Of a stretch of DNA of 64,000 nt, positions 6,851 to 64,000 are shown piece by piece. The notes under the pieces were generated by a model. That model saw only the letters and a program-made list of their open reading frames with translations. It had not been told where the DNA came from and ran no database searches. The DNA is from an uncultured Rickettsiaceae bacterium (GTDB lineage: Bacteria > Pseudomonadota > Alphaproteobacteria > Rickettsiales > Rickettsiaceae): NCBI GenBank assembly GCA_964409505.1, contig CAYPDK010000024.1, positions 396-64,395 of the forward strand, given 5' to 3'. Position 1 is the first letter of the stretch. Each line of letters begins with the position of its first letter. The position numbers were made by a program, and so were the translations under genes.

Positions 6851-6856
6851 ATTTAT

Positions 6857-8461: not shown

Positions 8462-8464
8462 AAA

Positions 8465-9448: not shown

Positions 9449-9478
9449 TAATTTTATACTAAAAATATCTTATTCTAC

Positions 9479-11176
9479 ATGAAAAATACAATCAATTCTA
9501 TCGTTAAAAAAATTTTAATAGCTCTTTACTTATATGCTTTGATTTTACTAATCGGTAATTTACTTGGCGTATCCATGAATTATTTTGGAGGTATGGAGTA
9601 CCCATTAGGAGCAGATATGGTTGTAATAGTAAATGCTTGGAGTGTAATACAATTTTTATATTCACAATGGGATAATTTGAATCATTATGAAATATATTTT
9701 AAATTAAAAGTTGCTCTTGCTTCCTCTATTGCTGTGCCTATCATTGTTTTTGTTGTGATTTTTTTTTTACATCGAAAAAAATTGGACAAAATAGATATTT
9801 TCAAGAAAAAGGAGGAGGCATATGGATCTGCTCAATGGGCACATAAAAGTGATATTGAAAAGGCAAACTTACGCTCTAAAAAGGGTATGTTGCTTGGTGA
9901 GGATGATGATGGATATTTTGTTGCGGATGGGTTTCAACATGCTCTTTTATTTGCTCCTACTGGATCTGGTAAAGGGGTTGGTTTTGTTATACCTAATTTG
10001 TTATTTTGGGAAGATTCTCTTGTTGTTCATGACATTAAGCTTGAAAATTACGAGCTTACAAGTGGTTGGAGAAAAAAAATGGGACAAGAGGTTTTTGTAT
10101 GGGAACCTTCTAATTCTGATGGTGTAACTCATTGCTATAACCCTATTGATTGGATTAGTACTAAGCCAGGACAAATGGTTGATGATATACAGAAAATCGC
10201 TAATTTGATTATGCCAGAAAAAGAATTTTGGACTAATGAGTCTAGGAGTTTATTTTTAGGAGTAGTTCTTGCTATACTTGTTGATTCTAGCAAGGAGAAG
10301 ACTTTTGGAGAGGTTGTTCGTACTATGCGAAGTGATGATGTTGCTTATAATTTGTCTGTAATACTTGATGTGCTTGGAGATATGATACATCCAGTAGGAT
10401 ATATGAATATTTCAGCTTTCTTACAAAAGGCTGAAAAAGAACGCTCTGGTGTGATATCTACCATGAACTCTTCTCTTGAGTTGTGGGCTAATCCCTTAAT
10501 AGATAAGGCTACATCTAAGTCTGATTTTAATTTTTCAGAATTTAGAAAAAAAAGAGTCACTGTATATGTAGGTCTTACTCCCGATAACGTTAGTAGATTA
10601 CAAAAATTGATGCAAGTCTTCTATCAGCAAGCAACTGAATTCTTAACTAGAAAAATGCCAGATAAAAAACATGAACCTTACGGAGTCATGTTTTTGATGG
10701 ATGAGTTTCCTACACTTGGTAAAATGGAACAATTTAAGACTGGAATTGCATATTTTAGAGGCTATCATGTAAGATTATTTTTGATAGTGCAAGATACTCA
10801 ACAATTAAAAGGTATATATGAAGAGGCAGGAATGAATTCCTTTTTATCTAATTCAACTTATAGAATTACCTTTGCTGCAAATAATTATGAAACAGCTAAT
10901 TTGATATCACAATTATGTGGAACAAAAACCATAGAAAATGAATCATATAGTAAACCTTCATTTGGGTTGAGTCTTGCTTCTAGAAGTAAGAGTGTCTCTA
11001 ATATACAAAGAGCACTTCTTCTTCCTCAAGAAGTGATACAGTTACCAAGAGATGAACAGATTGTTCTTATCGAGTCTCATCCTCCAATAAAAAGTAAAAA
11101 GATTTTTTATTTTAAGGATAAATTTTTTACAAAAAGAATTCTTCCTCCAATTAAAGTTCCAATTCAAAAATTGTAG
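9479..11176 (+). CDS. virD4: Type IV secretion coupling protein VirD4
   Basis: 565 aa. Two N-terminal TM segments, Walker A FAPTGSGKGVGFVIPN, Walker B FLMDEFPTLGK, and the conserved LFLIVQDTQQL motif of TraG/VirD4 proteins. Confidence 0.94.
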   Translation: MKNTINSIVKKILIALYLYALILLIGNLLGVSMNYFGGMEYPLGADMVVIVNAWSVIQFLYSQWDNLNHYEIYFKLKVALASSIAVPIIVFVVIFFLHRKKLDKIDIFKKKEEAYGSAQWAHKSDIEKANLRSKKGMLLGEDDDGYFVADGFQHALLFAPTGSGKGVGFVIPNLLFWEDSLVVHDIKLENYELTSGWRKKMGQEVFVWEPSNSDGVTHCYNPIDWISTKPGQMVDDIQKIANLIMPEKEFWTNESRSLFLGVVLAILVDSSKEKTFGEVVRTMRSDDVAYNLSVILDVLGDMIHPVGYMNISAFLQKAEKERSGVISTMNSSLELWANPLIDKATSKSDFNFSEFRKKRVTVYVGLTPDNVSRLQKLMQVFYQQATEFLTRKMPDKKHEPYGVMFLMDEFPTLGKMEQFKTGIAYFRGYHVRLFLIVQDTQQLKGIYEEAGMNSFLSNSTYRITFAANNYETANLISQLCGTKTIENESYSKPSFGLSLASRSKSVSNIQRALLLPQEVIQLPRDEQIVLIESHPPIKSKKIFYFKDKFFTKRILPPIKVPIQKL

Positions 11177-11247: not shown

Positions 11248-11285
11248 TCAGCAACATCATCATTATTCAGCAACATCATCATTAT
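11248..11285. repeat. Perfect 19-bp tandem duplication (tcagcaacatcatcattat x2) spanning the stop codon of the 710-aa gene
   Basis: Copy 1 is 11248-11266 and copy 2 is 11267-11285, read directly. Confidence 0.95.
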
Positions 11286-13395
11286 TGTTATTTCCAACAA
11301 GGTTTAGTGAATAATCTGTATATATAGCGGATGTTATAGGTACAGTATCATCTTCACTTGCTGCAAGCGCAGTAGAGGAGGATGTTGTAGGCACATTTGT
11401 TTGTGAAGTTTTTTCTTCAGCTTGAAAAGTTATTTTTTTCAACTCTCCTAGGAGTTCTTCAAAGTGAGTATCATCTAACATTTGTTCGGTTTTTTGTACA
11501 TCTGATAACAGCTCTTGTAATTTTTCAAAAGAATCTTGATTTAATGCTTTTTTTTCCAGTGTTTTTATCAAGAATTTTTGTAATTTTTCAAGTTGGTGTG
11601 CAGTTAATACTAAATTTGTTGCTGAGAATATTAATGTTATTTGCAGTTCTTTAAATTGAATATTATTCTCTAATTCTACTAGACTTGCTAGTAAATTCAG
11701 CTGTTTTGATAGAAGTTGTTCTAAAGTCAAATTTCCTTCCTTTAATTTATTGAAAAGTGGAGCTGTTTTTTTTTGAAAAGTAACTAAATTGTCTTCTCGA
11801 GAAATTTGTTTGTTGTTTTCTATAAAAAAGGTTATTCTGATTTCATCAGGATTGAAATATTTGTCTACATTAGCTTTAATGTAACATCCATCAGGGAATA
11901 TGCCAGTAATATTTATACATTCTTTTTTTATTTTTATATATTCAGCCATATTATTTGCACATTTACTCCAAATTATTCGATCTATTGCTGTAAAGTTTTC
12001 TAGTATATATGTACCTAGTACTTTTTGAGTATCATGAAGTATGAAAGCACGTAATGTGCACAGGGTTGACTCTGTTTTTTCACATATATAATCAGAGAAC
12101 ATGCTATGCATTTCTTTGACAAGGGTTTCAAGAGTGTGTGTTTGTTTGAGTTCTTGTTTTATTTGTAAAGCAAATTTCTTATCATTTAAAGTATTTGTTA
12201 CACGATCTACCATATCTTTGAATAGTACCTCAGAATTTTTTGTATCTTTTGCCCTTAGGGCAGTTGCGTCTTGGTGGATTTTAAGGTAAGGAGCAAAAAC
12301 TTCTGCTTCTAAATTTTTAATCATTTTTTGTGCTAAGTTTTCACATAAATTATTAAATTCTGTGCTCAAGAAAAAAGGAGTTAGATTTTTATTAAACTTT
12401 TTAAGTGCTTCTACTTTTACTTTTGGTGATATTGTTTCTCTATTTTCTGGTAGCGGGGTTTGTGCATTTGGTATTTGTAAGTGTAAGTCTGTTAGTATTT
12501 TTTCTATTAATTGTTTTTCTTTTTCTAGTAATTTTTGTTCCAGTGCTATTTGTTTTCTTATTTGTTCTTTTTGTTCCTTTTTTAGTGCTTCTTCTTTCTT
12601 TTTTCGGTCTATCTCGTCTGCTAGTTGAATTTGAATTAATTTAGAAAGCTTGTCTTTTATATATAAATCATTTACTTCTTCAGCTTTTTGTATTAATTGA
12701 GTTAAAGAGTAACCTGCTAATGTATTTATTCTATTAGAAAATTCTTGTTTTTGTTGCTCAATTGTTGCAGTCTCTTTTATAAGTTTTTCTAGATGATCAA
12801 AATTTTCTATATATTGGAGATCTTGTGGTAGCATATTCTCTAATACCAGATCCTTCTTTTCTTGTTTTTTTGGGGGTAGTTCTTTTACTAGGGTTTCTAG
12901 TTGTTTTTTTTTTGTTTTTAGTATGTCTAGTTTTTCTTCTTTAGTTTTTTTTAAACTTGCTAGTCGTTCCCTTAGTGCTTCGGTAGAGTTATTGAGTATT
13001 TGTGTTTGTACTTTTTGTATGTTTTTTTCTAAATTTTTTTGTATATGATTTTCTAATTTAGGTATATCTAATTCTAATGTACGGATTTCTTTTGTCTTGC
13101 TCCGTATTTCATTATCCTCTTCTACAGATTTTATGATTTGTGTTTTAAGAGATGTTAATCGAGAATTCAATTCTCGAACTTTTTGAAAAATTTGATGGAT
13201 ATTATCTCTAGAACTAGTGAACTGTAAATTATTGTCTTTTATAAGGTTTATTGTAGACTCAAAAGTATTTAGGAACTGTTCATTATCTATTATATCTGGG
13301 TATAAATTTGGTGAAAAAAGCTTCTCTATTATTTTTTTTCTTAAAAATTCTTTTAACTCTTTAGTGAGTTGTTCTTTTTGTGTTGAATAATCCAT
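11263..13395 (-). CDS. Hypothetical 710-aa coiled-coil protein; candidate secreted effector
   Basis: Long uninterrupted ORF convergent with virD4 (86-nt gap). Strongly E/K/Q/L-rich with heptad-like stretches (e.g. KKKEEALKKEQKEQIRKQIALEQKLLEKEKQLIEK). No TM segment, signal peptide or enzyme motif recognised. Acidic tail ...DYSLNLVGNNNNDDVAE. Confidence 0.7.
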   Translation of the reverse strand: MDYSTQKEQLTKELKEFLRKKIIEKLFSPNLYPDIIDNEQFLNTFESTINLIKDNNLQFTSSRDNIHQIFQKVRELNSRLTSLKTQIIKSVEEDNEIRSKTKEIRTLELDIPKLENHIQKNLEKNIQKVQTQILNNSTEALRERLASLKKTKEEKLDILKTKKKQLETLVKELPPKKQEKKDLVLENMLPQDLQYIENFDHLEKLIKETATIEQQKQEFSNRINTLAGYSLTQLIQKAEEVNDLYIKDKLSKLIQIQLADEIDRKKKEEALKKEQKEQIRKQIALEQKLLEKEKQLIEKILTDLHLQIPNAQTPLPENRETISPKVKVEALKKFNKNLTPFFLSTEFNNLCENLAQKMIKNLEAEVFAPYLKIHQDATALRAKDTKNSEVLFKDMVDRVTNTLNDKKFALQIKQELKQTHTLETLVKEMHSMFSDYICEKTESTLCTLRAFILHDTQKVLGTYILENFTAIDRIIWSKCANNMAEYIKIKKECINITGIFPDGCYIKANVDKYFNPDEIRITFFIENNKQISREDNLVTFQKKTAPLFNKLKEGNLTLEQLLSKQLNLLASLVELENNIQFKELQITLIFSATNLVLTAHQLEKLQKFLIKTLEKKALNQDSFEKLQELLSDVQKTEQMLDDTHFEELLGELKKITFQAEEKTSQTNVPTTSSSTALAASEDDTVPITSAIYTDYSLNLVGNNNNDDVAE

Positions 13396-25661: not shown

Positions 25662-27233
25662 GTGGTAGGAGATTTTTTTCAAAAAACATGGGAATATGCT
25701 AATTTACAAAAAAATAAGTCGGTTACGTTTCTTGCACGTAAATATCCTCATTTTGTAACTAATGTATCTTTAAATCCTTGGTTTCAAAATATGTTTTTTG
25801 GAGAAATGACACAAGATGTACAAAATATTATAGATTTAAATAATACGAATGATCTCACTTCAGAAGAAACAAAATTAGAGCATAAAAATACTTTTTCTTC
25901 CTTAGTAGAAATGACTCTAGGAGCTATACTACAAGATTTCACAGATAATCAAATAACAAAAATGTTCTACTCTTTAGATCAAAATAAAAGAGAAGAAATA
26001 TTGTCTAGATATGGGTTAAAAGAGGATTTTTTTACAAATGCAGATAATGTTTTTACATTAGGTGTTACTGATACTTTAATTTCTTTGGGACGGGATATAT
26101 TTTTAGAATATTTTAAAGTGAAAATTCCTACAATAAATGCCTCAACGGTGATGAATTCTATTAATTCTTTAAATAGTCAGGATCAAAATACTTTTTTTAA
26201 TTTTTCGGGTAATTTTTTAGAAAATGCATTAAAGCAATTAAGTAAAAATGATAGTGTTACACCACAAATCTTGACAAATTCATTGTTAAATGTTTTAGAG
26301 GCCTCTTTGCATCAAAAAAATTCTAAAGAAGCTTTTAATGTAATAGTAAAAATAGCTACAGGATGTATAGATAATCCTGTAGTCCCAATAACTCCACCTA
26401 AGTCTAGGGATAGAATAAAAGATATCAAAATTGATAAAACAAAAGAGAATTTTTTGATCTCTACGTTTAAACTTTGTGTTAAGGTTATTGTAGATTTCAT
26501 GCAATTTTTAAAAAGTGCGGCTGTTGAAATGATTCTGAAATTTAGTAAAAAACATAAAAAGTTATTTGATAAATTTTTAGGAACCAACTTATTTAACAAA
26601 TTATTAGATACAAAAATGGTAAAGTCTAAAATAGACCCTTTTTCTCAAGCCTTTGGAATAGATTATGGTTGTTTGACTAAGTTTATAAAAAATTCTCCTA
26701 AGGAAACAAAAATCATGATAAAAGATGCGATTTTATATAATTCTAATACTATTAAGGCCATAAAAAGCTCTTTAGATAATTTTAAGTTGAACGATAATGT
26801 TCTATCTAATGTTATCTCAACTATAGGACAAAAAAGTACCCAGAATAAAATAGTATTTATTAAAGGGCTACATGCAATAATGTCTAGCTATACCAAATAT
26901 GCTAGAATCTCTAAGACAAATTTAAATGAAGATACTAAGAAAAAAATGACAGTTGGATTAGTATTTGATACTTTAAATCAATTGTTCGATCGTTCAAAGG
27001 ATGGAGAAGAAAAACAATTTTTTCAGATTGTTAGTGATGTTTTGTTTGAGGCACCCAAAGAATTAATACAACAAAAAGCTACAGAGCCTCAAAAAAATGA
27101 GACCTATTACATTTCAATAGCTTCTTCTGCTTTTATGAAAGTTACACAAAATGTTGTAGAGGCAGTATCTGACTTATTAAGGATTAAGACTCCTCAGAAA
27201 ACTGTACAGCCACAAACACAACTCGGCATGTAG
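25662..27233 (+). CDS. Hypothetical 523-aa protein, no recognised domain
   Basis: Single long ORF in an otherwise ORF-free 2.2-kb interval. GTG start is uncertain (downstream ATGs exist). Asn/Lys/Ser-rich with composition suggesting mostly helix (by eye). No TM segment or signal peptide. Confidence 0.55.
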   Translation: MVGDFFQKTWEYANLQKNKSVTFLARKYPHFVTNVSLNPWFQNMFFGEMTQDVQNIIDLNNTNDLTSEETKLEHKNTFSSLVEMTLGAILQDFTDNQITKMFYSLDQNKREEILSRYGLKEDFFTNADNVFTLGVTDTLISLGRDIFLEYFKVKIPTINASTVMNSINSLNSQDQNTFFNFSGNFLENALKQLSKNDSVTPQILTNSLLNVLEASLHQKNSKEAFNVIVKIATGCIDNPVVPITPPKSRDRIKDIKIDKTKENFLISTFKLCVKVIVDFMQFLKSAAVEMILKFSKKHKKLFDKFLGTNLFNKLLDTKMVKSKIDPFSQAFGIDYGCLTKFIKNSPKETKIMIKDAILYNSNTIKAIKSSLDNFKLNDNVLSNVISTIGQKSTQNKIVFIKGLHAIMSSYTKYARISKTNLNEDTKKKMTVGLVFDTLNQLFDRSKDGEEKQFFQIVSDVLFEAPKELIQQKATEPQKNETYYISIASSAFMKVTQNVVEAVSDLLRIKTPQKTVQPQTQLGM

Positions 27234-35851: not shown

Positions 35852-37606
35852 ATGATAGTTATGACAAAAATTTCTGATCACAATTTAATAAAAGAGTTTG
35901 TAGAACAAATTTCGACTAGTAGACGACAAAATAAGAATCATTATTGGGACTTACAGAAGTTAATAGGTAAAATTTATTTTAAGCACTCTGATAAAACAAG
36001 GGTTGGTGAGGCTAAAGAAGAAAGTTTGAAGATTGATCTTCTCAGATCGTTACAACAAATCGATTTAGTTTTCCAATTGCTTACATATATAAATTATAAA
36101 GAGGATACTAGATCAAAAAAACACATATTTCTTGCTAAGCAGTTTCAAAAAAAATTTAAAGAAGAACTCAAGTCATATTTATTTAGTTATAAACCTGTAA
36201 ATCAAAAAGTACTAGAAGAAAGGGAAAAACAGAATGTGATTGAAAAGATTGATTCTTCAAATAGAGGAGCTATAAATTTTATTTATTCACAATTATCAAC
36301 TAGAGTCAATGACTCAGAAAAATTCATAGAATATAGTACAAAAATATCTAATGACTTAACACAAATCTTTGAGTCTTTATTTGATAAAAGTGCAGAGCAA
36401 AATGTACTTGCAGAGCAAAGTGCGTTTGTATCTAAAAATCTCAAGGAGTTAATAATCGATAAGATAAAAGCAGACTCAATGTCTTTAGAAGAGATAGATA
36501 CTGATATTGATCCAGAAATTTTAGATTTAGAATCCTTAAAAGAAAAATTGAAGGAACTGCAAACAAAATATTCAAATACTTTGGTATTTTACTACGATAA
36601 AGAATTAGAAACATATATAACATGTGAAGAACTTTTGCTAAAGGTTGAAAATGTTCAAAAATACTTAGAACAAATAGAAATATCAGATGAAAAAATTATT
36701 CCTAATAAAGTGGTTCGTACTTTCAAAGGTGTTAATAATAAGAATCTTCAAGAATTTAATGTAGAATTTAAGCAAGATAATGAGAGAAGAAAAAAATTGA
36801 AAGAAAATTTTCCTAAACTAATTCAGGATCTATTTGAGGATTCCAAGATTGCAAATCAGATGTTAGAATTTATCAAAGATGCGAAGAGTACAATAACGGA
36901 TTTTTCCTTTTTACCTAAAGAAGAGGACTGGGTTAGTATTTTTGAAAAGGAATTTACTCTGCCGAAACAAGATAATAGTGTTTCTAATGAGGATTTACCT
37001 AAAGAATATACTTATGTAGATGAACTAACTCCTGTTGATAGTAACACTAAGGATATTAAGACTTCGCAGCCTTCTGTTGTAGGTGGGGATAAAATCAGTA
37101 CAGTTAGTGGTGAACCTAAAAGGAGTGAGAGTTCGTCTTTCTTAAATCCAAACGATACTAAACCTAAAACTGAGGAAGGAAATATACCTAATATTAGAGA
37201 TGGGCAGGTTGTTGTTAGAGATAAAGAGGACACTGGTGTTAAAGTTTTTTGGATTGGGGGTAATACTGATAGCTCTAGTCAATTTGAGTTCAGTAGTCAG
37301 TCTTCTTTTGCGGATGAAACAATACTTAATAATGAAGAGAGGAAGGGGGATAGTGATAGTAACACTAATGGTATTGAAACTTTAGGATATGTTAACGTAA
37401 ATGGGTCTAATGTAAGTTGGGGATCTAATATAAGTAGTATATTTCAGCGTGGTATTTTAGTACTTAGTGATGTTCATGAATTTGAGACATCTAAAATACA
37501 TATTGCTGGTGATAGCTCTAGCAAACCCGAATATGATGGGGTGAGTTTGGCGGGTTACGATAAGGAGGGTTTGGAGAGTTTTATTAAATCCCTTTTCGAG
37601 GGATGA
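35852..37606 (+). CDS. Hypothetical 584-aa protein; helical/coiled-coil N-terminal two-thirds, Ser/Thr/Gly/Asp-rich C-terminal third; candidate secreted effector
   Basis: Only long ORF in a 3.2-kb interval between clpX and sucD. No TM segment, signal peptide or catalytic motif recognised. Tail ...IHIAGDSSSKPEYDGVSLAGYDKEGLESFIKSLFEG. Confidence 0.65.
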   Translation: MIVMTKISDHNLIKEFVEQISTSRRQNKNHYWDLQKLIGKIYFKHSDKTRVGEAKEESLKIDLLRSLQQIDLVFQLLTYINYKEDTRSKKHIFLAKQFQKKFKEELKSYLFSYKPVNQKVLEEREKQNVIEKIDSSNRGAINFIYSQLSTRVNDSEKFIEYSTKISNDLTQIFESLFDKSAEQNVLAEQSAFVSKNLKELIIDKIKADSMSLEEIDTDIDPEILDLESLKEKLKELQTKYSNTLVFYYDKELETYITCEELLLKVENVQKYLEQIEISDEKIIPNKVVRTFKGVNNKNLQEFNVEFKQDNERRKKLKENFPKLIQDLFEDSKIANQMLEFIKDAKSTITDFSFLPKEEDWVSIFEKEFTLPKQDNSVSNEDLPKEYTYVDELTPVDSNTKDIKTSQPSVVGGDKISTVSGEPKRSESSSFLNPNDTKPKTEEGNIPNIRDGQVVVRDKEDTGVKVFWIGGNTDSSSQFEFSSQSSFADETILNNEERKGDSDSNTNGIETLGYVNVNGSNVSWGSNISSIFQRGILVLSDVHEFETSKIHIAGDSSSKPEYDGVSLAGYDKEGLESFIKSLFEG

Positions 37607-40087: not shown

Positions 40088-42181
40088 TTAGATTAAATCT
40101 AAAGTTTTTATTTTAGTTTTTTGGTAAATTTCATTTTCAGACATAACAAATATATTGGGGAGCAGGGGTGCAAGTATATCTTTTACATAAGGTCTGATTT
40201 TTGGGTTAGAAAGTAACACAGGAGTATCAGAGCCTTCTTTGAGGTATTTGCTAAAAATTAAATTTACTCTTTGTATAAATTGTTGCATTTGAGAGGGTTT
40301 CATTATGAAATTTGGTCTTTTTAGAGTCTCATCTGTATGAGATATGCTGTTTAAAAAAGTATTTTCCCAGGAATCTGATAATATTATAGAGGAGATATAT
40401 CCATCTGAATTTGTGTGTGAATAGGAAATTTGACGTGAAAGTTTAAACCTTACATATTCTGTAATGGAGGTAATATCTTGGTTGTTTTTAGCAACTTCTC
40501 CTATTGCCTCGAGTATTGTGGCGAAATCTCTTATTGATATGAGTTCTTTTAGTAGGTTTTGCAGTATTTTTTGGATAGTTGCAATGGAGGCAATTTCTGG
40601 AACTACATAATTTGCTAGTGCTTTGTGTTCTTGCGGAATATTTTTTATTAATTGATCTACAACTCCATAGGATAAGAAATCCACTATATTTTCTTTAATT
40701 ACTTCTTTTATATGTGTAATTATGACAAAGTGGCTTTTAACTAAGGTGTAGTTATTTTTAATAATCTCATCTGTGTATCTTATGTCTACCCATTTAGCAT
40801 TAAATCCAAAAGCATTATCCTTAAAATCCTCACCTATAACGTTTACTTCCTTGCCTAGTGGATTAAAGACTAAATACTTATCTCGCCTTATAAATCCTTT
40901 AGCAATTTGCAATCCTTTTATTTTGATTACGTAATGGTCATATCCCAATGTTATGTTATCAACAATTCTTATAGGAGGAAATACAAAGCCATATTCTTGA
41001 GCTAATTCCTTTCTGAGTTCTTCAATAATAAATTTAAAATTTATGTTAGGATTTTTAATCATGTCAATTAATTCCAAACCTATTTCTAGACTAATATAAT
41101 CTAGTGCTAATATGTCAGAATATTTTTGTTCTTGAGACACAAAATTTGAGCTTTTATCATTTGAGTTGGATTTTTCATGTAAAGCATTAGATGTATTTTT
41201 ATCCTTTTTAAAGAAAAGACTGATGTACCAAATAAATAATATTACAGCTGAGGTCAAAGAGAATACAAAAAAAGGAAGTCCTGGTAGAAAGCCCATAATA
41301 AAGACTACAATTGAAGTAACCAGCAGAGTTTCTGGATATTTACCTAATTGTTGAAACAGTAATTTGTCAGTGGCACCTACAACACCCGCTTTTGTTACAA
41401 GTAACCCGGCTGAAAGAGAGATGATTAATGATGGTATTTGAGAGACTAATCCATCACCTATAGTAAGGAGTGAGTAAGTCTTTACCGCTATGTTGAAGGA
41501 GAGGTTTTTTTGTACAATTCCAACTATCATTCCTCCTACCAAATTGATAAAAGTAATGACCAGACCTGCGATAGCGTCTCCTCTGACAAATTTGTTAGCT
41601 CCGTCCATAGAGCCATAAAAAGATGTCTCATTTTCAAGGTTTGTGCGCTTTTTTTTAGCTTCTTCTTCTGTTAAAAGACCATTATTTAAATCAGAATCTA
41701 TAGACATTTGTTTTCCAGGCATAGCATCAAGACTAAACCTTGCTGCAACTTCCGCGATTCTTCCTGAGCCTTTTGTTATAACTATAAAATTGATTAATGT
41801 TAAAATAAGGAAAACAATAAGACCTATAACTACATTTCCTTGCATGATAAAATTCCCAAATGCCTCTATTATTCTACCTGCTGAATCTGAACCCAGATGT
41901 CCATGAGATAGTATCAGTCGTGTGGAGGCTATATTTAAAGACAATCTCAAGAGAGTGCTTATAAGTAAAATTGTTGGAAATACACTAAGCTCGAGTGGTT
42001 TTAATATAAATAAACTGCTCATTAATATAATAATTGATACTGATATTGATATTGAAAGAAAAAAATCTAAAAACCCTTTGGGTATAGGAAATATGAGTAC
42101 TAATAATATTATGAGTAGGGAAGAGGCTAACGTTATATTAGTGTACTTAGAAACCTCCTTCAGAATTTTACTAAACAGCAT
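40088..42181 (-). CDS. flhA: FHIPEP-family export gate protein, most likely flagellar FlhA (SctV homolog)
   Basis: 697 aa, full length. N-terminal polytopic domain with RFSLDAMPGKQMSIDSDL and MDGANKFVRGDAIAG. C-terminal cytoplasmic domain with GFVFPPIRIVDN, FGFNAKWV, ISIRDFATILEAI, TPVLLSNPKIRPYVK. No frameshift or internal stop. Confidence 0.85.
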   Translation of the reverse strand: MLFSKILKEVSKYTNITLASSLLIILLVLIFPIPKGFLDFFLSISISVSIIILMSSLFILKPLELSVFPTILLISTLLRLSLNIASTRLILSHGHLGSDSAGRIIEAFGNFIMQGNVVIGLIVFLILTLINFIVITKGSGRIAEVAARFSLDAMPGKQMSIDSDLNNGLLTEEEAKKKRTNLENETSFYGSMDGANKFVRGDAIAGLVITFINLVGGMIVGIVQKNLSFNIAVKTYSLLTIGDGLVSQIPSLIISLSAGLLVTKAGVVGATDKLLFQQLGKYPETLLVTSIVVFIMGFLPGLPFFVFSLTSAVILFIWYISLFFKKDKNTSNALHEKSNSNDKSSNFVSQEQKYSDILALDYISLEIGLELIDMIKNPNINFKFIIEELRKELAQEYGFVFPPIRIVDNITLGYDHYVIKIKGLQIAKGFIRRDKYLVFNPLGKEVNVIGEDFKDNAFGFNAKWVDIRYTDEIIKNNYTLVKSHFVIITHIKEVIKENIVDFLSYGVVDQLIKNIPQEHKALANYVVPEIASIATIQKILQNLLKELISIRDFATILEAIGEVAKNNQDITSITEYVRFKLSRQISYSHTNSDGYISSIILSDSWENTFLNSISHTDETLKRPNFIMKPSQMQQFIQRVNLIFSKYLKEGSDTPVLLSNPKIRPYVKDILAPLLPNIFVMSENEIYQKTKIKTLDLI

Positions 42182-58935: not shown

Positions 58936-59166
58936 TTATTGTTCGTTTACATTATCTATTGCTTTTTGAATCTTATCTTTTGGCATATTTGATCCTCTTG
59001 CATCTTCTATGGCTTTGCGTAATCTTGGATTATTATTCGAATCCTTTCCTCCTAATTTTACTGCAGAAGAAATTTCTCTTGTTAATTTAGTAAATAACTT
59101 TGCTCTTTTTTGATCTTGAGCATTTTTTCTATGTTTTATGTTCTTTGCTTTAGAGTGTCCTGCCAT
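58936..59166 (-). pseudogene. YebC/PmpR-family gene reduced to its N-terminal domain (76 codons)
   Basis: [70 protein letters not shown] matches the first ~75 residues of the ~240-250 aa YebC family. The stop is at 58936, and only 30 nt separate it from the convergent ygfZ, so the remaining two thirds are absent. Confidence 0.55.
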
Positions 59167-59374: not shown

Positions 59375-62212
59375 ATGAAGAAAGTACAAAAATATCAAAT
59401 TTTTTTTTGTATATTTTTCTTACTTATAAGTAGTGTAATACATGGATCTAGCTCAGCAGGAGCTGAGTCTTTTTATATTTATAGGGAAAGTGTTAATAAT
59501 TCAAAATATAGAGAAAAAAATATAGCAGATTCTATACAACAAAAAATATCAGATCATAGTAATGTTATTTCAGAAAATTTATTAATTTCTGAGAAAGATT
59601 CTACTTTTTATTTTAATAATCCATATGATCTTACTTTAAGAGTGTCAGAAACCGGTTTAGATGGGTATTTAGTAGTTAACAGTTCTTCTAATCAAGTAAA
59701 TCTTAGCAAAACAATAGGGAAGAAATTATCTGACACAGCTACACCTCTAATGATATTACAATCTCCTGGTACAGCACCTCCTGGCAGGGAACCTCCTGGC
59801 AGGGAACCTCCTGGTACAGTACCTCCTGGCAGGGAACCTCCTGGTACAGTACCTCCTGGCGGTAAACCTCCTGGCAGGGAACCTCCTGGTACAGTACCTC
59901 CTGGCGGTAAACCTCCTGGTACAGAACCTCCTGGCATGGAACCCCCTGGTGGCAAACCTCCTGGTACAGTACCTCCTGGCATGGAACCCCCTGGAAGCAA
60001 ACCTCCTGGTACAGAACCTCCTGGCAGCGAACCTCCTGGCAGGGCACCCCCTGGTACAGTCCCTCCTGGTCGCGAACCTCCTGGCGGCGAACCTCCTGGC
60101 AGGGAACCCCCTGGTACAGTACCTCCTGGTAGCGAACCTCCTGGCGGCAAACCTCCTGGCATGGAACCCCCTGGTACAGTACCTCCTGGTAGCGAACCTC
60201 CTGGCGGCAAACCTCCTGGCATGGAACCCCCCGGTAGTGAACCCCCTGGTAGCAAATCCCCTAGTAGTGAACCACCTGGGAAAGAACCACCTGGTTCGTC
60301 TGATCTAAAATTTATTACTTGCACTAAATATGCAGGGGAAAATACTTTAGATCCAAGATATCATGATATCTTGGATCATATTGAGATTGTCTCAGAGGAT
60401 TTATACGGGTGTAATCATAATTCTACTTTTCGTTTTATGCTTTTTTATACCATTCCTCCAGAAAGTGTAGAAAATACTTCTGGTGAATATATCAAAAAAT
60501 TTTCTGGCATAGAGGGGACTTTATCAAATATAGGAGAGTCTTATTTTTTTGATCAAGATAGTTTTCATGATAGGGAAGGTACAAATATCAGTGAAAACAG
60601 TAATTTTGTACAATATAGTGAAAAATATAGTTTTGTTTCTTCTTTGTTTCATGGGTTAGAAATTAGATATTTGTCTGATCAATACGGTAATTATTTGACT
60701 ATTCCTACTGTAGATGGATGGCTTAAAATCGCTTCAAGATCTAAAAGTACTGCGGTATCAAAAGGTATTGGTGGTATTGGTTTTTCTCCTGAATCATGTA
60801 CCGGCTCTCCTATACCGGATTGTTTTGTAAACTCTGTCGGAAAAAGTCAGATTTTATATGGTAATTTGGGAACAATTATAAATTGTATGATAAATAATAT
60901 AAATTATATATTATTTCCCGTAAGGTCGCAGGATATGAATTGTATACCTAATAGTTCTGCATTTCTTAATTCATTTCCTTATTTTCAAAACTACATGAAA
61001 CAATTTGTCTTTGCTGCTTTAACACTTTATATCATGTTTTATGGTTTTCAAATTTTGCTCAATCTTAGTGATCAGAATAGAGAAGGATTATTATCTAATT
61101 CAGAAATCTTCATGGCAATTATGAAAGTGGTCTTTGTGATTTATTTATCTATAGGGTTACCTAATTTTGATATTAATAATAAAGATTCTGAAAGTGCTGA
61201 AAATGATAGAAACGGACTATCAGTATCTTTTAGGGTTAATGGTATAGAAGAATATGTTTTGCCTATTACGTTAGGATTAATTAATCAGGTTAGTGAATTT
61301 GTTTTTTCTTCTCTTTTAGTCTCAAATAATAATTTATGTAATTTTGAAAGAGGAAGATATGTTGATATAAATTACTACCTCTGGGATATAGTGGAATGTA
61401 GGATTTTATCTATTTTAGGAGTGAATTCTATAACAGATAATTTTCAGGAAGGTTTTTTGGAAGCACATAATATTAGTTTAGAGGGTACAAATTTTAGTTT
61501 AGAAAATACATTGGGGGTATTTCATAATCCTAATGCCCCTTCATCTTTAAAAGTAATGGATAATTTAAATATTTTTACAGTGATAGGGTATATGATGTTG
61601 ATACCAAATTTTTACATACATATATCAGCTAGTGTGCTATTTGCTGTAGTTGTAATATTTATTTATATTTTCTTATTTGTTACTTCTTACTTAATGTCAA
61701 TTTTTGTTATTTATTTGTCTTTATACTTAAGCCCAATATTAATTCCTAGCTTACTTTTTGATAAAACTAGACATTTATTCGAAGGTTGGTATAGGATATT
61801 GGTATCATTTGTTGTCTTACCAATTGTTACGGCTGCTTTTGTAGCTATCATTTTATTTTTTTATGATCAAATTCTTTCTCCTGGTTGCTCTTATTCAAGA
61901 CAGGATTATATTTATGAACCCTCATCTGAGGATATACATATCCCCTCTCAAAAATTTAGTACTTTTAAAATAGGATATAATTTTACGGAGAAACAATGTT
62001 CAGATAGTATCTTGTACCAGCTTATAGAGTATTATTACGGTCATAACTGGTCAAAATATAAATTTTTATTTATATTTTCTTTTCCTAAACTAACACATTT
62101 ATCATCTCTTATGACCAATCTTTTTCAATTGCTGTATGTAAATATTTTATTTGCTTTATTATCTACAAGATTTTTAGGATTTTTAAAGGGATTTTTAAAT
62201 ATTGAAATGTAG
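59375..62212 (+). CDS. virB6: VirB6-like type IV secretion protein (RvhB6 paralog) with N-terminal signal peptide and PPG pentapeptide-repeat region
   Basis: 945 aa. Signal-peptide-like MKKVQKYQIFFCIFFLLISSVIHG, the repeat block at residues 131-307, a soluble domain of about 300 aa, then a TrbL/VirB6 polytopic domain (ALTLYIMFYGFQILL, LSPILIPSLLFDKTRHLFEGWYRILVSF with the conserved Trp). Confidence 0.85.
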   Translation: MKKVQKYQIFFCIFFLLISSVIHGSSSAGAESFYIYRESVNNSKYREKNIADSIQQKISDHSNVISENLLISEKDSTFYFNNPYDLTLRVSETGLDGYLVVNSSSNQVNLSKTIGKKLSDTATPLMILQSPGTAPPGREPPGREPPGTVPPGREPPGTVPPGGKPPGREPPGTVPPGGKPPGTEPPGMEPPGGKPPGTVPPGMEPPGSKPPGTEPPGSEPPGRAPPGTVPPGREPPGGEPPGREPPGTVPPGSEPPGGKPPGMEPPGTVPPGSEPPGGKPPGMEPPGSEPPGSKSPSSEPPGKEPPGSSDLKFITCTKYAGENTLDPRYHDILDHIEIVSEDLYGCNHNSTFRFMLFYTIPPESVENTSGEYIKKFSGIEGTLSNIGESYFFDQDSFHDREGTNISENSNFVQYSEKYSFVSSLFHGLEIRYLSDQYGNYLTIPTVDGWLKIASRSKSTAVSKGIGGIGFSPESCTGSPIPDCFVNSVGKSQILYGNLGTIINCMINNINYILFPVRSQDMNCIPNSSAFLNSFPYFQNYMKQFVFAALTLYIMFYGFQILLNLSDQNREGLLSNSEIFMAIMKVVFVIYLSIGLPNFDINNKDSESAENDRNGLSVSFRVNGIEEYVLPITLGLINQVSEFVFSSLLVSNNNLCNFERGRYVDINYYLWDIVECRILSILGVNSITDNFQEGFLEAHNISLEGTNFSLENTLGVFHNPNAPSSLKVMDNLNIFTVIGYMMLIPNFYIHISASVLFAVVVIFIYIFLFVTSYLMSIFVIYLSLYLSPILIPSLLFDKTRHLFEGWYRILVSFVVLPIVTAAFVAIILFFYDQILSPGCSYSRQDYIYEPSSEDIHIPSQKFSTFKIGYNFTEKQCSDSILYQLIEYYYGHNWSKYKFLFIFSFPKLTHLSSLMTNLFQLLYVNILFALLSTRFLGFLKGFLNIEM
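59765..60295 (+). repeat. 15-nt (pentapeptide x-x-P-P-G) tandem repeat, about 35 units, GC-rich, with 60-nt higher-order units
   Basis: Direct reading: ccwcctggn + 6 nt repeated without interruption. 60111-60170 and 60171-60230 are identical; 60051-60110 is a diverged copy. Confidence 0.97.
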
Positions 62213-62223
62213 AGATGGTATAA

Positions 62224-64000
62224 AATGTCATCAAAATTATTTTCTAAAATAGGTACAGATGCTAAAAACGCAGCAAAGGGGGCTGCTAGTGGAGTAAGTA
62301 ACAGTGCTAAACAACATGCTGACAAATTACTAAATCCAGAACACAAATCTCAAGACCATTATCATTTTTTTATACTTATCTTAATTGGGTCTTTGATTGT
62401 TAGTTGTGTTTTATTTTGTGCGGGTTGGGTGATTTCTCTTATTGATGGAGGTTGTAAATTTAGATACGCTGTTGATACAGAAGGTAAGCTAAACAATAAG
62501 GACTACATTTCTACACAAAATATCGTTCTTGCAGGAAATGGAGCAGATAAAATTTTTGCTCCATCAGGAGTAGTACCAGAATCAGGAGAAAATGTTGATA
62601 TTCCAGTACCTTTGAAGTATTTTCAGTGGCTTAATACAGGACAATATATAGATGAAGTTACAGGTGGTTCTGAAAAGTCTTATTCTCCTGCAGAGATTGA
62701 TTTCACTATTGGGGGTGAGATCAGTTTGGCTCGAGTATCCTTACATCAAAATAATATCGAGGGAAATTTCGAGGAAAAGAAGATCAAAATTCCACAAGTA
62801 GGTAGTTCAGAGGTCTTGTCCTTAATTTTTAAAGCCTCACAGAAGACAAAAATATTGCTAAAACTTAATTCAGGTGATTCATTTTTGGTAAAAATACATA
62901 GAGAAAGAAAACCTACAGAAGAGCTCGAATATATACCATATATGCATGTAAGTCCTATTAGTGGAAATATTGAGATGATGTGTAATAAGATTAATAATAA
63001 CTTTGATAGCGTTTGTGGGAGATATTATACTGATATTTTTAGTGAAAATTTGATAAGAGGAGAAAATATTTTTTCTCCTGATAATAAGCCTAATGAAGAT
63101 AATAAAATTGATATTAGGCTTAAATATGAATTTGTAACTCCAGGTTTTTTGTGGGGTGTTTTTACCGACAATGAAAGTGGTACTGTTATACCTGGAGTAT
63201 CAGCTGATAAAGTAATACCTGTTAGTTTTTTAAAAGACGACCCTACTGAAGAGGAGCCAGGTCTTCTTATAAATAATATGAATGAAGGACATAATGGTGA
63301 TTTAAAGATTTACTTTGATACAGAGGGTTCAGGGGATTTGGGAGGAGGCTATATATTTGATATTCAGCAAACAGCCTTTAAAGTTAATCCTAAATCAGGA
63401 TTAGAGATGTGGGGAAATGGTATGATAGAATATGTCATATCTGATGATGATCCTAATGAATTGCCAGAAGAGGAGCTAAAACCTACGTTAATGCAAGTTG
63501 AAGACGGAGAAGAAGGACAATTTGCTTATAAATTAGTGCCAGATAATAAAGGTTTTGTTTGGATTAGGGTGAAAGTGGGAGAACCTTTTAAAAGTAGTCC
63601 AGAAGAAATTGTAGGAGAATATAATATATCTTGGACTGGCTTAGTTAAAGGAAAGGATTTTTTAGAAAATTTTGTAGGGCCCATTATAGATTTTATTCCT
63701 AATACAGTAAATGTTAAAATTGTTGATTTTTTTAAAAAAATGACTTGCTATGTAGAGCCTAACGATGATCCAACAAGTGTTGATAGAGAGAGATGTACAA
63801 ATTTTTTCCTAATTATAAGAGCTGTTCTTGCATTATACATAATCATTTATGGTTTTATGTTTTTGACAGGTGTTGTGACAATTAGTAATTTAGATTTGGT
63901 TGTGAGAATCATCAAAATTACTCTTGTAGCAGGTATAATTAACGGGGGAACATTTGTTTTTTTTAATGATTATATTTTTCCTCTAGTTCAAAACTTTACC
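62224..64000 (+). CDS. virB6: Second VirB6-like protein (RvhB6 paralog), 3' end outside the window
   Basis: Not in the ORF track because no stop is reached. I translated from ATG 62224 (MSSKLFSKIGTDAKNAAKG...) to base 64000 and met no stop (592 codons). One TM (FFILILIGSLIVSCVLFCAGWVISL), a large soluble domain, then the onset of the VirB6 membrane domain FFLIIRAVLALYIIIYGFMFLTGV...IIKITLVAGIINGG. This parallels ALTLYIMFYGFQILL...IMKVVFVIYLSIG of the upstream paralog. Confidence 0.8.

What the first reader, a model, noticed from the sequence alone, without database searches (positions are those of the whole stretch)
59765..60295. GC-rich block of 35 x-x-P-P-G pentapeptide repeats inside a VirB6-like T4SS protein, with signs of recent expansion
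Seen: residues 131-307 of the 945-aa ORF are 35 consecutive pentads (TAPPG REPPG REPPG TVPPG ... GKPPG MEPPG ... SEPPG KEPPG). That is a strict 15-nt period over 531 nt. The block is visibly far more G+C-rich than the AT-rich flanks. It is stop-free in several frames on both strands, which produces three spurious track ORFs. A 60-nt super-unit (TVPPG-SEPPG-GKPPG-MEPPG) occurs as two identical copies (60111-60170, 60171-60230) after a diverged copy (60051-60110). This implies recent slippage or unequal recombination and predicts length polymorphism. Established: the C-terminal half carries the TrbL/VirB6 polytopic domain, including LFDKTRHLFEGW. Inference: the period is 5, not 3, so this is not collagen. 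The closest analogies are elastin-like VPGxG or silk GPGGx pentapeptides, or Pro-rich periplasm-spanning spacers such as in TonB. The block would place an extended or elastic, possibly variable, spacer between a small secreted N-terminal domain and the channel subunit. I do not recognise this repeat from described Rickettsiales VirB6 extensions, but I cannot search.
Basis: partly seen in the sequence, partly recalled or inferred. Interest (0 to 1): 0.7.

Follow-up and report, generated by a model that had tools for sequence, protein, structure and literature searches.

The report
Proline-glycine repeat spacer in a VirB6 protein
One channel protein of a type IV secretion system, in an AT-rich Rickettsia-like bacterium, has gained a recently amplified run of 35 five-residue x-x-Pro-Pro-Gly units that is absent from the relatives examined; it most likely acts as a floppy periplasmic tether and should also be unusually hard for ribosomes to translate.

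Summary
ORF 59375-62212 (945 aa) contains 35 gap-free pentads, 34 of them exact x-x-P-P-G, encoded by a 15-nt repeat at 59765-60295. It includes a perfect 2x60-nt and a perfect 2x45-nt duplication.

The host protein is a real VirB6/TrbL subunit. It is the first gene of a tandem VirB6 paralogue array of a Rickettsiales-type T4SS.

What is new here:
- **Insertion.** In aligned homologues the signal peptide is followed almost at once by the first conserved cysteine. Here about 285 residues (a unique segment plus the repeat) lie between them.
- **Uniqueness.** None of 149 representative homologues or 81 related loci has such a repeat.
- **GC content.** The high G+C follows from Pro/Gly codons (0.614 observed, 0.590 expected). 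It is not a sign of foreign DNA.
- **Possible duplication.** The segment before the repeat looks like a degenerate, cysteine-less partial copy of the domain that follows it. This is suggestive only.
- **Translation.** PPG is a known EF-P-dependent ribosome-stalling motif. This gene has 34 copies; the other 37 ORFs have 2.
- **Reading frame.** An alternative frame resembling classical pentapeptide repeats was tested and rejected.

The function (disordered periplasmic spacer) is inferred. Length polymorphism could not be tested.

The parts
59375..62212 (+). Complete ORF, 945 aa: first VirB6 (RvhB6-like) paralogue of a tandem array
   Evidence: ORF list. Pfam TrbL/VirB6, E 4.9e-15. 469 HMMER homologues. 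Foldseek to TrwI/VirB6. Aligns with the first paralogue of L001 from C316 onward, 33% identity, E 9e-92.
59375..59464 (+). Predicted Sec signal peptide, aa 1-30 (MKKVQK + hydrophobic core + AGA|ES)
   Evidence: Hydropathy peak at aa 4-27. AlphaFold helix at aa 2-24. Homologues carry an equivalent N-terminal hydrophobic segment. The cleavage site is inferred from the -3/-1 rule.
59465..59764 (+). Lineage-specific N-terminal segment, aa 31-130; Ser/Asn-rich, no Cys, no confident fold
   Evidence: No Pfam hit. No homologue found. pLDDT 26-45 in the full-length model and 35 when folded alone.
59492..59614 (+). Block 1 of the putative internal duplicate (aa 40-80), similar to aa 314-354
   Evidence: BLASTP pairwise: 34% identity over 41 aa, E 9e-6. 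Smith-Waterman 62 against shuffles 31 +/- 5.9, 0 of 2000 reaching it. A natural-sequence control reached 59 at most in 163 windows.
59657..59719 (+). Block 2 of the putative internal duplicate (aa 95-115), colinear with block 1, similar to aa 445-465
   Evidence: Smith-Waterman 41 against shuffles 23.1 +/- 4.1; 5 of 2000 reach it.
59765..60295 (+). The xxPPG array: 35 pentads, 15-nt unit, no indels, 20 distinct unit sequences
59821..59910 (+). Perfect 2 x 45-nt duplication (units RE-TV-GK, twice)
   Evidence: 45/45 identical. 54-nt exact run at lag 45.
60111..60230 (+). Perfect 2 x 60-nt duplication (TVPPG-SEPPG-GKPPG-MEPPG, twice); the preceding copy 60051-60110 is 56/60 identical
60314..60436 (+). 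Start of the conserved periplasmic domain (aa 314-354, including the conserved C316); counterpart of duplicate block 1
   Evidence: Alignment A2: C316 is the first conserved Cys, a few residues after the signal peptide in all aligned homologues. Pairwise comparisons.
60707..60769 (+). aa 445-465 (VDGWLKIASRSKSTAVSKGIG), within the conserved 'MPTSxGxxPLxCR' region; counterpart of duplicate block 2
60320..61003 (+). Conserved Cys-containing periplasmic N-domain of Rickettsiales-type VirB6 (aa 316-543)
   Evidence: Nearly invariant C316, C483 and C504. Confidently modelled beta/alpha domain.
61004..62209 (+). Polytopic membrane core (aa 544-945) with the TrbL/VirB6 signature (Pfam match aa 751-835 = nt 61625-61879)
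   Evidence: Hydropathy segments at aa 544-562, 578-596, 750-768, 776-794, 808-826 and 919-937. Pfam. hmmsearch to TrwI, E 0.06. Foldseek.
62225..64000 (+). Next VirB6 paralogue (runs off the window), starting 13 nt after the stop codon
   Evidence: Translation. 35% identical (E 6e-38) to the second TrbL paralogue of L001.
59692..60324 (-). Spurious antisense ORF (PGGSL...) created by the stop-free repeat. The same applies to 59739..60047 (-) and 59949..60308 (+).
   Evidence: Codon-adaptation index is 0.22-0.46 in the other five frames and 0.59 in the ORF frame. No Pfam family for the two alternative-frame translations scanned: the +1 frame, and the reverse-strand frame of ORF 59692..60324.

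Best explanation
**What it is (shown).** The block is a lineage-specific coding minisatellite with a 15-nt unit. It is always in frame and has recently been amplified in 45- and 60-nt super-units. It encodes a Pro/Gly-rich, low-complexity segment of about 175 residues.

The segment sits in an N-terminal extension of the first VirB6 paralogue of a Rickettsiales (rvh-type) type IV secretion system. It lies after a Sec-type signal peptide and a roughly 100-residue unique segment. Nine residues after it comes the first conserved cysteine of the periplasmic domain that aligned homologues carry directly behind their signal peptide.

**How it most likely works (inferred).**
- After export, the extension lies in the periplasm.
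- The xxPPG array has no stable fold. It would behave as an extended or flexible polyproline-II/turn-rich tether, up to about 54 nm if fully extended at 0.31 nm per residue.
- That tether separates the N-terminal segment from the membrane-anchored VirB6 core. VirB6 forms the base of the periplasmic stalk in solved T4SS structures.
- The N-terminal segment is itself probably a decayed, Cys-less partial copy of the following subdomain.
- The tether length can change in 15-nt steps by slippage or unequal recombination without ever breaking the frame.

**Side effect predicted from established knowledge.** 34 PPG motifs spaced 5 codons apart should make translation of this gene slow and strongly dependent on EF-P.
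For: **Repeat anatomy and recent amplification**
-.
- Synonymous sites inside the unit are almost invariant (unit position 3 is T in 34/35 units; position 12 is A in 34/35). The homogeneity therefore reflects recent copying.
- Over-use of GGC, AGG and AGC fits propagation of a few founder units.

**Coding frame**
- The same frame runs through both flanks.
- The ORF frame has the best codon adaptation of the six frames (0.59 against 0.22-0.46).

**VirB6 identity**
- Pfam and 469 HMMER homologues.
- Confident AlphaFold core, with Foldseek top hits TrwI/VirB6 of the R388 stalk at probability 1.0 and TM 0.43-0.50.
- A tandem paralogue downstream and conserved synteny with L001.
- virB8-virB10-virB11-virD4 in the same window.

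**Insertion site**
- In alignment A2 the homologues with an intact N-terminus go from signal peptide to the first conserved Cys within about 5-10 residues.
- The closest relative has no extension: an in-frame upstream ATG gives a signal peptide followed directly by the Cys.
- The median number of residues before the C483-equivalent is 181 in 149 homologues and 482 here.

**Disorder**
- pLDDT is below 50 with no secondary structure across aa 23-311.

**Uniqueness**
- No PPG pentads in 149 homologues or in 81 loci.

**Stalling motif**
- PPG is an EF-P-alleviated stall motif (PMC4218817, citing Ude 2013 and Doerfel 2013).
- There are 34 PPG here and 2 in 16,836 residues of the other 37 ORFs.
Against: - No experimental or population data exist, so the spacer function is pure inference.
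- Low AlphaFold confidence is expected for any region with no aligned homologues. It does not prove disorder.
- The periplasmic location rests on a predicted signal peptide and on the topology of homologues.
- The array may have no function at all (see the first rival).
- The internal-duplication evidence is modest. A natural-sequence control reached 59 against the observed 62, and the family profile does not detect the copy.
- The genome itself could not be identified, and the assembly could not be checked against reads.
Confidence: 0.55

Rival explanations
1. Functionally neutral, or slightly harmful, low-complexity expansion. A slippage-prone 15-nt unit arose at a tolerant position just behind the signal peptide. 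It expanded by drift in a small-population host-associated bacterium. The protein works despite it, not because of it.
For: - Absent from every homologue examined, including the closest one.
- Predicted unstructured.
- Perfect duplicates and invariant synonymous sites indicate youth rather than long-term selection.
- The 3' units are already decaying (SKSPS, CCA codons).
- The neighbourhood shows gene decay: a yebC remnant of 76 aa.
- Other VirB6 homologues tolerate unrelated repeats and insertions.
Against: - In a 29.5% GC genome, 34 of 35 units keep an intact CC-CC-GG core, with no frameshift or stop over 531 nt.
- The array carries a likely translational cost (34 stall motifs) that selection would be expected to remove unless it is compensated.
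- Neither point is decisive if the array is very young.
Confidence: 0.28
2. A variable, host-facing module. The array is a contingency-type VNTR whose length or sequence variation alters an exposed part of the secretion machine, for antigenic or host-range variation. Comparable cases are the variable repeats of Anaplasma VirB6-3/-4 and the GGxxP region of pertactin.
For: - Strain-variable tandem repeats are documented in A. phagocytophilum VirB6-3/VirB6-4 (PMC3556328).
- Pertactin has a polymorphic GGXXP pentapeptide region (papers listed).
- The unit is always in frame, and recent super-unit duplications show the array is dynamic.
Against: - The predicted location is periplasmic, not surface-exposed.
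- No second allele was found in any collection searched.
- The Anaplasma repeats are C-terminal and unrelated in sequence.
Confidence: 0.1
3. A translational throttle. The main selected effect is on the ribosome. Thirty-four EF-P-dependent PPG stalls slow elongation after the signal peptide has emerged. This could limit the amount of this paralogue (and, through the 13-nt gap, perhaps of the next gene), or it could buy time for membrane targeting before the polytopic core is made.
For: - PPG is an established EF-P-dependent stall motif.
- The enrichment is extreme: 34 here against 2 in the rest of the window's ORFs.
- The array lies between the signal peptide and the membrane core.
- The next paralogue starts 13 nt downstream.
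Against: - There is no evidence that stalling is used for regulation here.
- A handful of motifs would be enough; 34 is excessive.
- The stalling strength of these particular sequence contexts, and the EF-P status of this organism, are unknown. No efp gene turned up among the 29 window ORFs scanned against NCBIfam or Pfam; 9 of the 38 ORFs of 150 aa or more outside the repeat were never scanned.
Confidence: 0.1
4. Artefact or wrong frame. The block could be a mis-assembled repeat or a pseudogenising insertion. Alternatively it could be DNA of a classical A-[DN]-L-x-x pentapeptide-repeat protein read off-frame, as turned out to be the case for most 'xxPPG' DNA matches in viral contigs.
For: - In IMG/VR contigs the REPPG/RGPPG/RVPPG readings are off-frame images of ADLRG/ANLQG pentapeptide-repeat genes.
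- The window's +1 frame is open across the block and reads ANLLA/GNLLV/QYLLA.
Against: - The +1 frame gets no Pentapeptide Pfam hit and has very poor codon adaptation (0.22 against 0.59).
- The flanks on both sides are in the ORF frame, and the block is an exact multiple of 3.
- The signal peptide upstream and the conserved domain downstream only make one protein in this frame.
- The longest exact repeat is 129 nt with 20 distinct units, which ordinary reads can resolve.
Confidence: 0.03

Closest known systems
Rickettsiales rvh-type VirB6 (RvhB6) paralogue arrays (Gillespie et al. 2009, PMC2653234)
   Same: - Tandemly duplicated, enlarged VirB6 proteins with a signal peptide, a Cys-containing periplasmic domain and a polytopic TrbL core.
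- All genome hits are Rickettsiaceae or Rickettsiales, at 22-32% identity.
- The other T4SS genes sit in a separate islet of the same window, virB8 to virD4.
   Different: - None of the 149 representative homologues or 81 loci has a Pro/Gly pentad array.
- Here about 285 extra residues are inserted between the signal peptide and the first conserved Cys.
Anaplasma phagocytophilum VirB6-3/VirB6-4 tandem-repeat regions (PMC3556328; PMC7648143)
   Same: - Tandem coding repeats inside VirB6 paralogues of a Rickettsiales T4SS.
- Copy number and order differ between strains.
- They show that VirB6 paralogues are a recurrent home for expanding repeats.
   Different: - The Anaplasma repeats are long units (84-405 bp), lie in the C-terminal extension and are acidic.
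- Here the unit is 15 nt, N-terminal (predicted periplasmic) and Pro/Gly-rich.
- Variation is documented in Anaplasma but untested here.
TonB-type proline-rich periplasmic spacers (own knowledge)
   Same: A Pro-rich, extended, non-globular segment in the periplasmic part of an inner-membrane-anchored envelope protein. This is the best analogy for how the block may work.
   Different: - TonB uses (Glu-Pro)n-(Lys-Pro)n dipeptides, not pentads.
- There is no sequence relationship and the protein family is different.
- The analogy is not a tested membership.
Pertactin region 1 (GGXXP)n of Bordetella (papers listed)
   Same: A Gly/Pro pentapeptide unit encoded by 15 nt, with copy-number alleles in a bacterial envelope protein.
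   Different: - Pertactin has about 3-6 units in a surface loop of an autotransporter.
- Here there are 35 units in a predicted periplasmic extension of a T4SS subunit.
Classical pentapeptide-repeat proteins (PF00805, A[DN]LxX) and plant PRP/extensin-type PPxxx repeats (PF02095)
   Same: - Period of five residues.
- The DNA of A-[DN]-L-x-G repeats reads xPPGx in another frame.
- PF02095 gives a weak compositional match.
   Different: - Neither the ORF frame nor the +1 frame matches PF00805.
- The PF02095 score is 48-54 bits, against a gathering score of 105.
EF-P-dependent polyproline stall motifs (PPP/PPG) (PMC4218817, citing Ude 2013 and Doerfel 2013)
   Same: Each unit contains the PPG tripeptide, which stalls bacterial ribosomes unless EF-P is present.
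   Different: Known bacterial targets carry one or a few motifs. An uninterrupted series of 34, spaced 5 codons apart, is extreme. Its behaviour has not been measured.

Membership tests
VirB6/TrbL (PF04610) | Match to the family profile above the curated threshold | tested here: met
   56.3 bits against a cut-off of 25.9, E 4.9e-15, aa 751-835.
VirB6/TrbL (PF04610) | Polytopic inner-membrane core with at least 5 hydrophobic helices | tested here: met
   Six hydropathy segments between aa 544 and 937. Long helices in the confident AlphaFold core.
VirB6/TrbL (PF04610) | Fold similarity to a solved VirB6 | tested here: met
   The top four Foldseek PDB hits are TrwI/VirB6 chains of the R388 stalk (7o3v, 8rt9, 8rtd), probability 0.98-1.00, TM (target) 0.39-0.50. 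E-values are only 0.015-0.04. The profile search hits TrwI at E 0.06.
VirB6/TrbL (PF04610) | Genomic association with other T4SS genes | tested here: met
   A second VirB6 paralogue lies directly downstream. VirB8, VirB10, VirB11 and VirD4 are at 5746-11176.
Rickettsiales rvh-type VirB6 paralogue array | Tandem paralogues, enlarged proteins with a signal peptide plus a conserved Cys-containing periplasmic domain, and closest relatives in Rickettsiales | tested here: met
   Alignments A2 and A4. Synteny with four TrbL genes in L001. 79 Rickettsiaceae/Rickettsiales loci.
Rickettsiales rvh-type VirB6 paralogue array | System lacks VirB5 | not testable with these tools
   Only 64 kb of the genome is available.
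Collagen-like (Gly-X-Y) repeat | Gly at every third residue | tested here: not met
   Gly recurs every 5 residues over 35 units with no indels.
Pentapeptide repeat family (PF00805, A[DN]LxX beta-helix) | Profile match in the translated frame | tested here: not met
   No hit in the ORF frame or in the ANLLx-like +1 frame at E <= 10. The +1 frame has a codon adaptation of 0.22.
Extensin-like / plant proline-rich protein repeats (PF02095) | Score above the gathering threshold | tested here: not met
   47.8-54.4 bits against 105. The match is compositional only.
Elastin-like (VPGXG) or silk (GPGGX) elastomeric repeats | Motif with a Pro-Gly turn plus a second Gly; beta-spiral or elastic behaviour | tested here: inconclusive
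   Pro-Gly is present in every unit, but the second Gly is not. AlphaFold gives no structure. Mechanical behaviour cannot be tested here.
Variable-number tandem repeat / contingency locus | Copy number differs between strains or within populations | not testable with these tools
   No second genome or metagenome copy of this gene was found. Perfect duplicates show recent change only.
EF-P-dependent stalling sequence | Contains PPG or PPP | tested here: met
   34 PPG in the ORF. The motif definition comes from PMC4218817. Actual stalling was not tested.

The most novel reading that the evidence does not exclude
Rickettsiales T4SSs lack VirB5, the protein that caps the VirB6 stalk and pilus in other systems. 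In that setting the extension might be a functional projection of the machine. The xxPPG rod, which could reach about 50 nm, would carry the N-terminal module up the stalk or channel, or even to the cell surface or host side. There the 34-fold PPG array could also mimic the eukaryotic proline-rich ligands recognised by PPG-binding modules such as GYF domains. Array length would then tune reach or host interaction.
Probability: 0.06. Interest if true: 0.75.

Novelty: new variant of a known kind. Interest (0 to 1): 0.4.

Why it matters
- **Open question.** Why Rickettsiales keep several enlarged VirB6 paralogues is unresolved; a 2025 cryo-tomography preprint calls it 'a mystery'. This gene shows that the region just behind the signal peptide can accept large insertions. 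It adds a Pro/Gly pentad tether to the repeat-bearing VirB6 forms already known from Anaplasma.
- **Natural EF-P substrate.** The gene has 34 consecutive PPG stall motifs in a bacterium with a very Pro-poor proteome. That makes it a natural extreme substrate for studying EF-P dependence.
- **Strain marker.** The block is an obvious PCR-sized marker for strain typing if the array is polymorphic.
- **Annotation caution.** DNA that reads xxPPG is often an off-frame image of classical pentapeptide-repeat genes, so the frame must be checked before such repeats are interpreted.
- **Caveat.** If the array is only a young neutral expansion, its significance is limited to these practical points.

Tried and rejected
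**Finding the genome or sister strains**
- Exact-protein look-ups found no contig.
- The cluster look-up shows a single NCBI member on a 66,318-bp contig, with no name.
- The word-index search with the C-terminal 638 aa returned only the protein itself.
- The genome scan used the pattern [SA]PIF[VI][PT][MF]xLF. This protein does not match it (it has SPILIPSLLF), so the source genome was missed and only distant Rickettsiaceae loci came back.
- The metagenome scan found one distant fragment.
- A literature search for the closest relative's accession found nothing.

**Searching with the repeat or the N-terminal segment alone**
- Neither gave a significant hit, not even the protein itself. These negatives are therefore weak.
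- The PDB sequence search with the repeat found only the Pro-rich linker of U1A, a compositional match.

**Foreign origin of the GC-rich block**
- Rejected: amino-acid composition explains the G+C.

**Off-frame pentapeptide-repeat origin**
- Rejected.

**Fold of aa 26-130**
- AlphaFold was uninformative, both with an alignment and alone.
- hhalign against the family profile was negative.

**Promoter and terminator scan**
- Nothing above background in this AT-rich DNA.

Full report
**1. The observation**

ORF 59375..62212 (+) encodes 945 aa. From residue 133 to 307 the protein is 35 consecutive pentads. Thirty-four are exact x-x-P-P-G and one, near the 3' end, has decayed to SKSPS. With the leading Pro-Gly this is aa 131-307, nt 59765-60295.

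Tandem Repeats Finder reports period 15 (31.6 copies) and period 60 (8.9 copies, score 553), both without indels. The core octamer CCTCCTGG occurs 25 times in the block and once elsewhere in 64 kb. By chance 0.46 occurrences are expected in the whole window.

G+C reaches 0.60-0.635 in the block and is 0.21-0.30 in the flanks.

The two 60-nt super-units 60111-60170 and 60171-60230 are 60/60 identical, and the preceding one is 56/60 identical to them. The array has 20 distinct 15-mers among its 35 units.

**2. Which frame is real?**

A pattern scan of viral contigs for four consecutive CCNCCNGG units found at least 120 loci. When translated, the most similar-looking ones (REPPG, RGPPG, RVPPG) proved to be off-frame images of classical A-[DN]-L-x-G pentapeptide-repeat genes. 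The longest ORFs there read ADLRGANLQG....

The window's +1 frame is also open across the block and reads ANLLA/GNLLV/QYLLA/WNPLV, so this had to be tested. The results were:
- The +1 frame gets no Pentapeptide Pfam hit.
- A codon-adaptation index built from 37 other ORFs of the window is 0.59 for the ORF frame and 0.22-0.46 for the other five frames. Window genes score 0.69 +/- 0.025.
- The sequence on both sides of the block is in the ORF frame, and only that frame joins a signal peptide to the conserved domain.

The xxPPG reading is therefore the coding one.

**3. G+C content**

With the window's own synonymous codon usage, the same peptide would be 0.590 GC; 0.614 is observed. GC3 is 0.27 in the block and 0.21 in the window genes. 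The G+C richness is thus a consequence of Pro and Gly codons and is no sign of foreign DNA. The only oddities are over-use of GGC, AGG and AGC, as expected if a few founder units were copied.

Within the unit, synonymous positions are almost invariant: position 3 is T in 34/35 units and position 12 is A in 34/35. The homogeneity of the array therefore reflects recent amplification or concerted evolution. It is not evidence for protein-level selection.

**4. The host protein**

Several lines identify it as a VirB6:
- Pfam TrbL/VirB6 matches aa 751-835 (E 4.9e-15).
- An exhaustive HMMER scan with aa 308-945 finds 469 relatives.
- The genome scan places homologues in Rickettsia, Megaira, Tisiphia, Orientia and unnamed Rickettsiaceae/Rickettsiales at 22-32% identity.
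- AlphaFold, using 75 homologues, models aa 316-945 confidently.
- Foldseek's top PDB hits are the TrwI/VirB6 chains of the R388 stalk complex (probability about 1.0, TM 0.39-0.50).

The next ORF (62225 onward) is another VirB6 paralogue. The closest relative is P0002, from GCA_015657545.1 (38% identity in the HMMER scan; 33% by BLASTP). It is likewise the first of four tandem TrbL genes, and both the first and the second genes are orthologous between the two loci.

The window also holds virB8, virB10, virB11 and virD4 at 5.7-11.2 kb, and a flagellar flhA. This fits a flagellum-encoding, AT-rich (29.5% GC) member of the Rickettsiales with a split rvh-type T4SS. The organism could not be named.

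**5. Where the repeat sits**

In alignment A2, the homologues with an intact N-terminus have an N-terminal hydrophobic signal sequence followed within about 5-10 residues by the first conserved cysteine. That cysteine is C316 here, nine residues after the last pentad.

The closest relative has an in-frame ATG 69 nt upstream of its called start. This gives a signal peptide followed directly by that cysteine. The present protein therefore carries about 285 inserted residues: aa 31-130, which are unique, and aa 131-307, the repeat.

The number of residues before the invariant C483-equivalent has a median of 181 in 149 homologues and is 482 here. Four homologues have even longer N-terminal regions, but those are helical and Lys/Glu-rich, not Pro-rich.

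None of the 149 homologues contains PPG pentads. Several have unrelated tandem repeats in their C-terminal tails. None of the 81 fetched loci, 80 of them around VirB6 homologues, contains even three consecutive units at the DNA level.

**6. The segment before the repeat**

It has no Pfam match and no detected homologue. AlphaFold gives no confident fold. It does, however, resemble the start of the domain after the repeat:
- aa 40-80 against aa 314-354: 34% identity, ungapped, pairwise E 9e-6. The Smith-Waterman score is 62 against 31 +/- 5.9 in 2000 shuffles, none of which reaches it.
- aa 95-115 against aa 445-465, colinear with the first block: score 41 against 23 +/- 4, with 5 of 2000 shuffles reaching it.

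A control using natural sequences from the same window reached 59, and the family profile does not detect the copy. I therefore rate this as suggestive, at about 60%. The extension may have begun as a partial internal duplication of the 5' part of the mature coding region that then lost its cysteines. The Pro/Gly minisatellite would have expanded at the junction.

**7. How it probably works**

Shown:
- a recently amplified, always-in-frame coding minisatellite;
- a position between a predicted Sec signal peptide and the conserved periplasmic domain of a VirB6;
- no predicted structure;
- lineage specificity.

Inferred: after export the extension is periplasmic, and the array acts as a flexible or extended Pro-rich tether. 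Fully extended as polyproline II it would measure about 54 nm, more than the width of a periplasm. As a flexible chain it would be much shorter.

In solved systems VirB6 forms the base of the periplasmic stalk under VirB5 (PDB 7o3v and 8rt9 titles). Rickettsiales lack VirB5 (PMC2653234), and the role of their VirB6 paralogues is unresolved. A tethered N-terminal module at the stalk base is therefore plausible but unproven.

One corollary rests on established knowledge. PPG is, with PPP, the classic ribosome-stalling motif relieved by EF-P (PMC4218817, citing Ude 2013 and Doerfel 2013). This ORF has 34 PPG motifs, and 16,836 residues of the 37 other ORFs have 2. Translation of this gene should be slow and strongly dependent on EF-P. 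Whether the cell exploits this is unknown.

**8. Rivals**

- Neutral young expansion: 0.28.
- Variable host-facing module, by analogy with Anaplasma VirB6-3/-4 (PMC3556328) and the pertactin GGXXP region: 0.10.
- Selected translational throttle: 0.10.
- Artefact or wrong frame: 0.03.

The first three are not mutually exclusive with the tether model.

**9. Comparison and novelty**

Tandem repeats inside Rickettsiales VirB6 paralogues are known, but they are C-terminal, have long units and are acidic. A 35-unit N-terminal xxPPG array was not seen in any homologue or locus examined.

The array fails the tests for collagen (periodicity), for PF00805 and for PF02095. The analogies to elastin, silk and TonB concern how it may behave, not family membership.

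I classify it as a new variant of a known kind: a repeat-bearing VirB6 paralogue. Interest is moderate. The anatomy is clear and unusual, but it is a low-complexity, probably young insertion. Function and polymorphism remain untested.

Noticed in passing
IMG/VR loci L190, L118, L114, L157, L125, L172, L192: DNA that reads REPPG/RGPPG/RVPPG pentads in one frame is, in these GC-rich viral contigs, an off-frame image of classical A-[DN]-L-x-G pentapeptide-repeat genes. A few AT-richer contigs have short runs of xxPPG inside long ORFs that appear real: L191 (949-aa ORF, TTPPG x7), L137 (PTPPG x7) and L181 (ETPPG x7).
   Followed up: partly
window 58936-59166 (-): Only the first 76 residues of a YebC/PmpR-family regulator (normally about 245 aa) are encoded. 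The remnant lies directly upstream of the VirB6 gene and 30 nt from the end of the ygfZ-like gene, which suggests a rearrangement or deletion at the 5' border of the VirB6 array. The closest relative has a different upstream neighbour, an amino-acid kinase.
   Followed up: partly
window 7198-7303 (+), inside the VirB10 gene 6857-8461: A second in-frame 15/30-nt tandem repeat (AGAAAAAGAACAGAG), Lys/Glu-rich, lies in the N-terminal part of VirB10. In other systems VirB10 has a Pro-rich region there.
   Followed up: no
window 5746-11176 and 40088-42181: A T4SS islet (virB8, a short gap that could hold virB9, virB10, virB11, virD4) lies 48 kb from the VirB6 array. A full-length flagellar export gene flhA (774 bits) is also present, so this Rickettsiales lineage appears to encode flagellar genes.
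   Followed up: partly
window 11263-13395 (-), 25662-27233 (+), 35852-37606 (+), 16-1056 (+): Four sizeable ORFs (710, 523, 584 and 346 aa) have no NCBIfam or Pfam match. The 710-aa one lies directly after virD4.
   Followed up: no
window 59451-59468 (+): A terminator-like hairpin (GCTCAGC-AGGA-GCTGAGT followed by CTTTTTATAT) lies inside the ORF, at the predicted signal-peptide cleavage region. It is probably coincidental.
   Followed up: no
homologues P0025, P0091, P0116, P0126, P0079; P0017, P0019, P0047, P0070: Other VirB6 homologues carry unrelated tandem repeats (periods of 3, 11, 12, 26 and 41 residues) in their C-terminal tails. Others have 400-500-residue helical, Lys/Glu-rich insertions in the N-terminal periplasmic region. 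Both ends of these proteins appear to tolerate insertions.
   Followed up: partly
window 11248-11286: A perfect 19-nt tandem duplication (TCAGCAACATCATCATTAT x2.1) overlaps the 3' end of the 710-aa ORF on the minus strand.
   Followed up: no
tool behaviour: The word-indexed protein search returned only the query's own entry, or nothing. The exhaustive HMMER scan found 469 relatives, including one at E 5.6e-78. Negatives from the word-indexed search should not be trusted for this AT-rich, divergent protein.
   Followed up: yes
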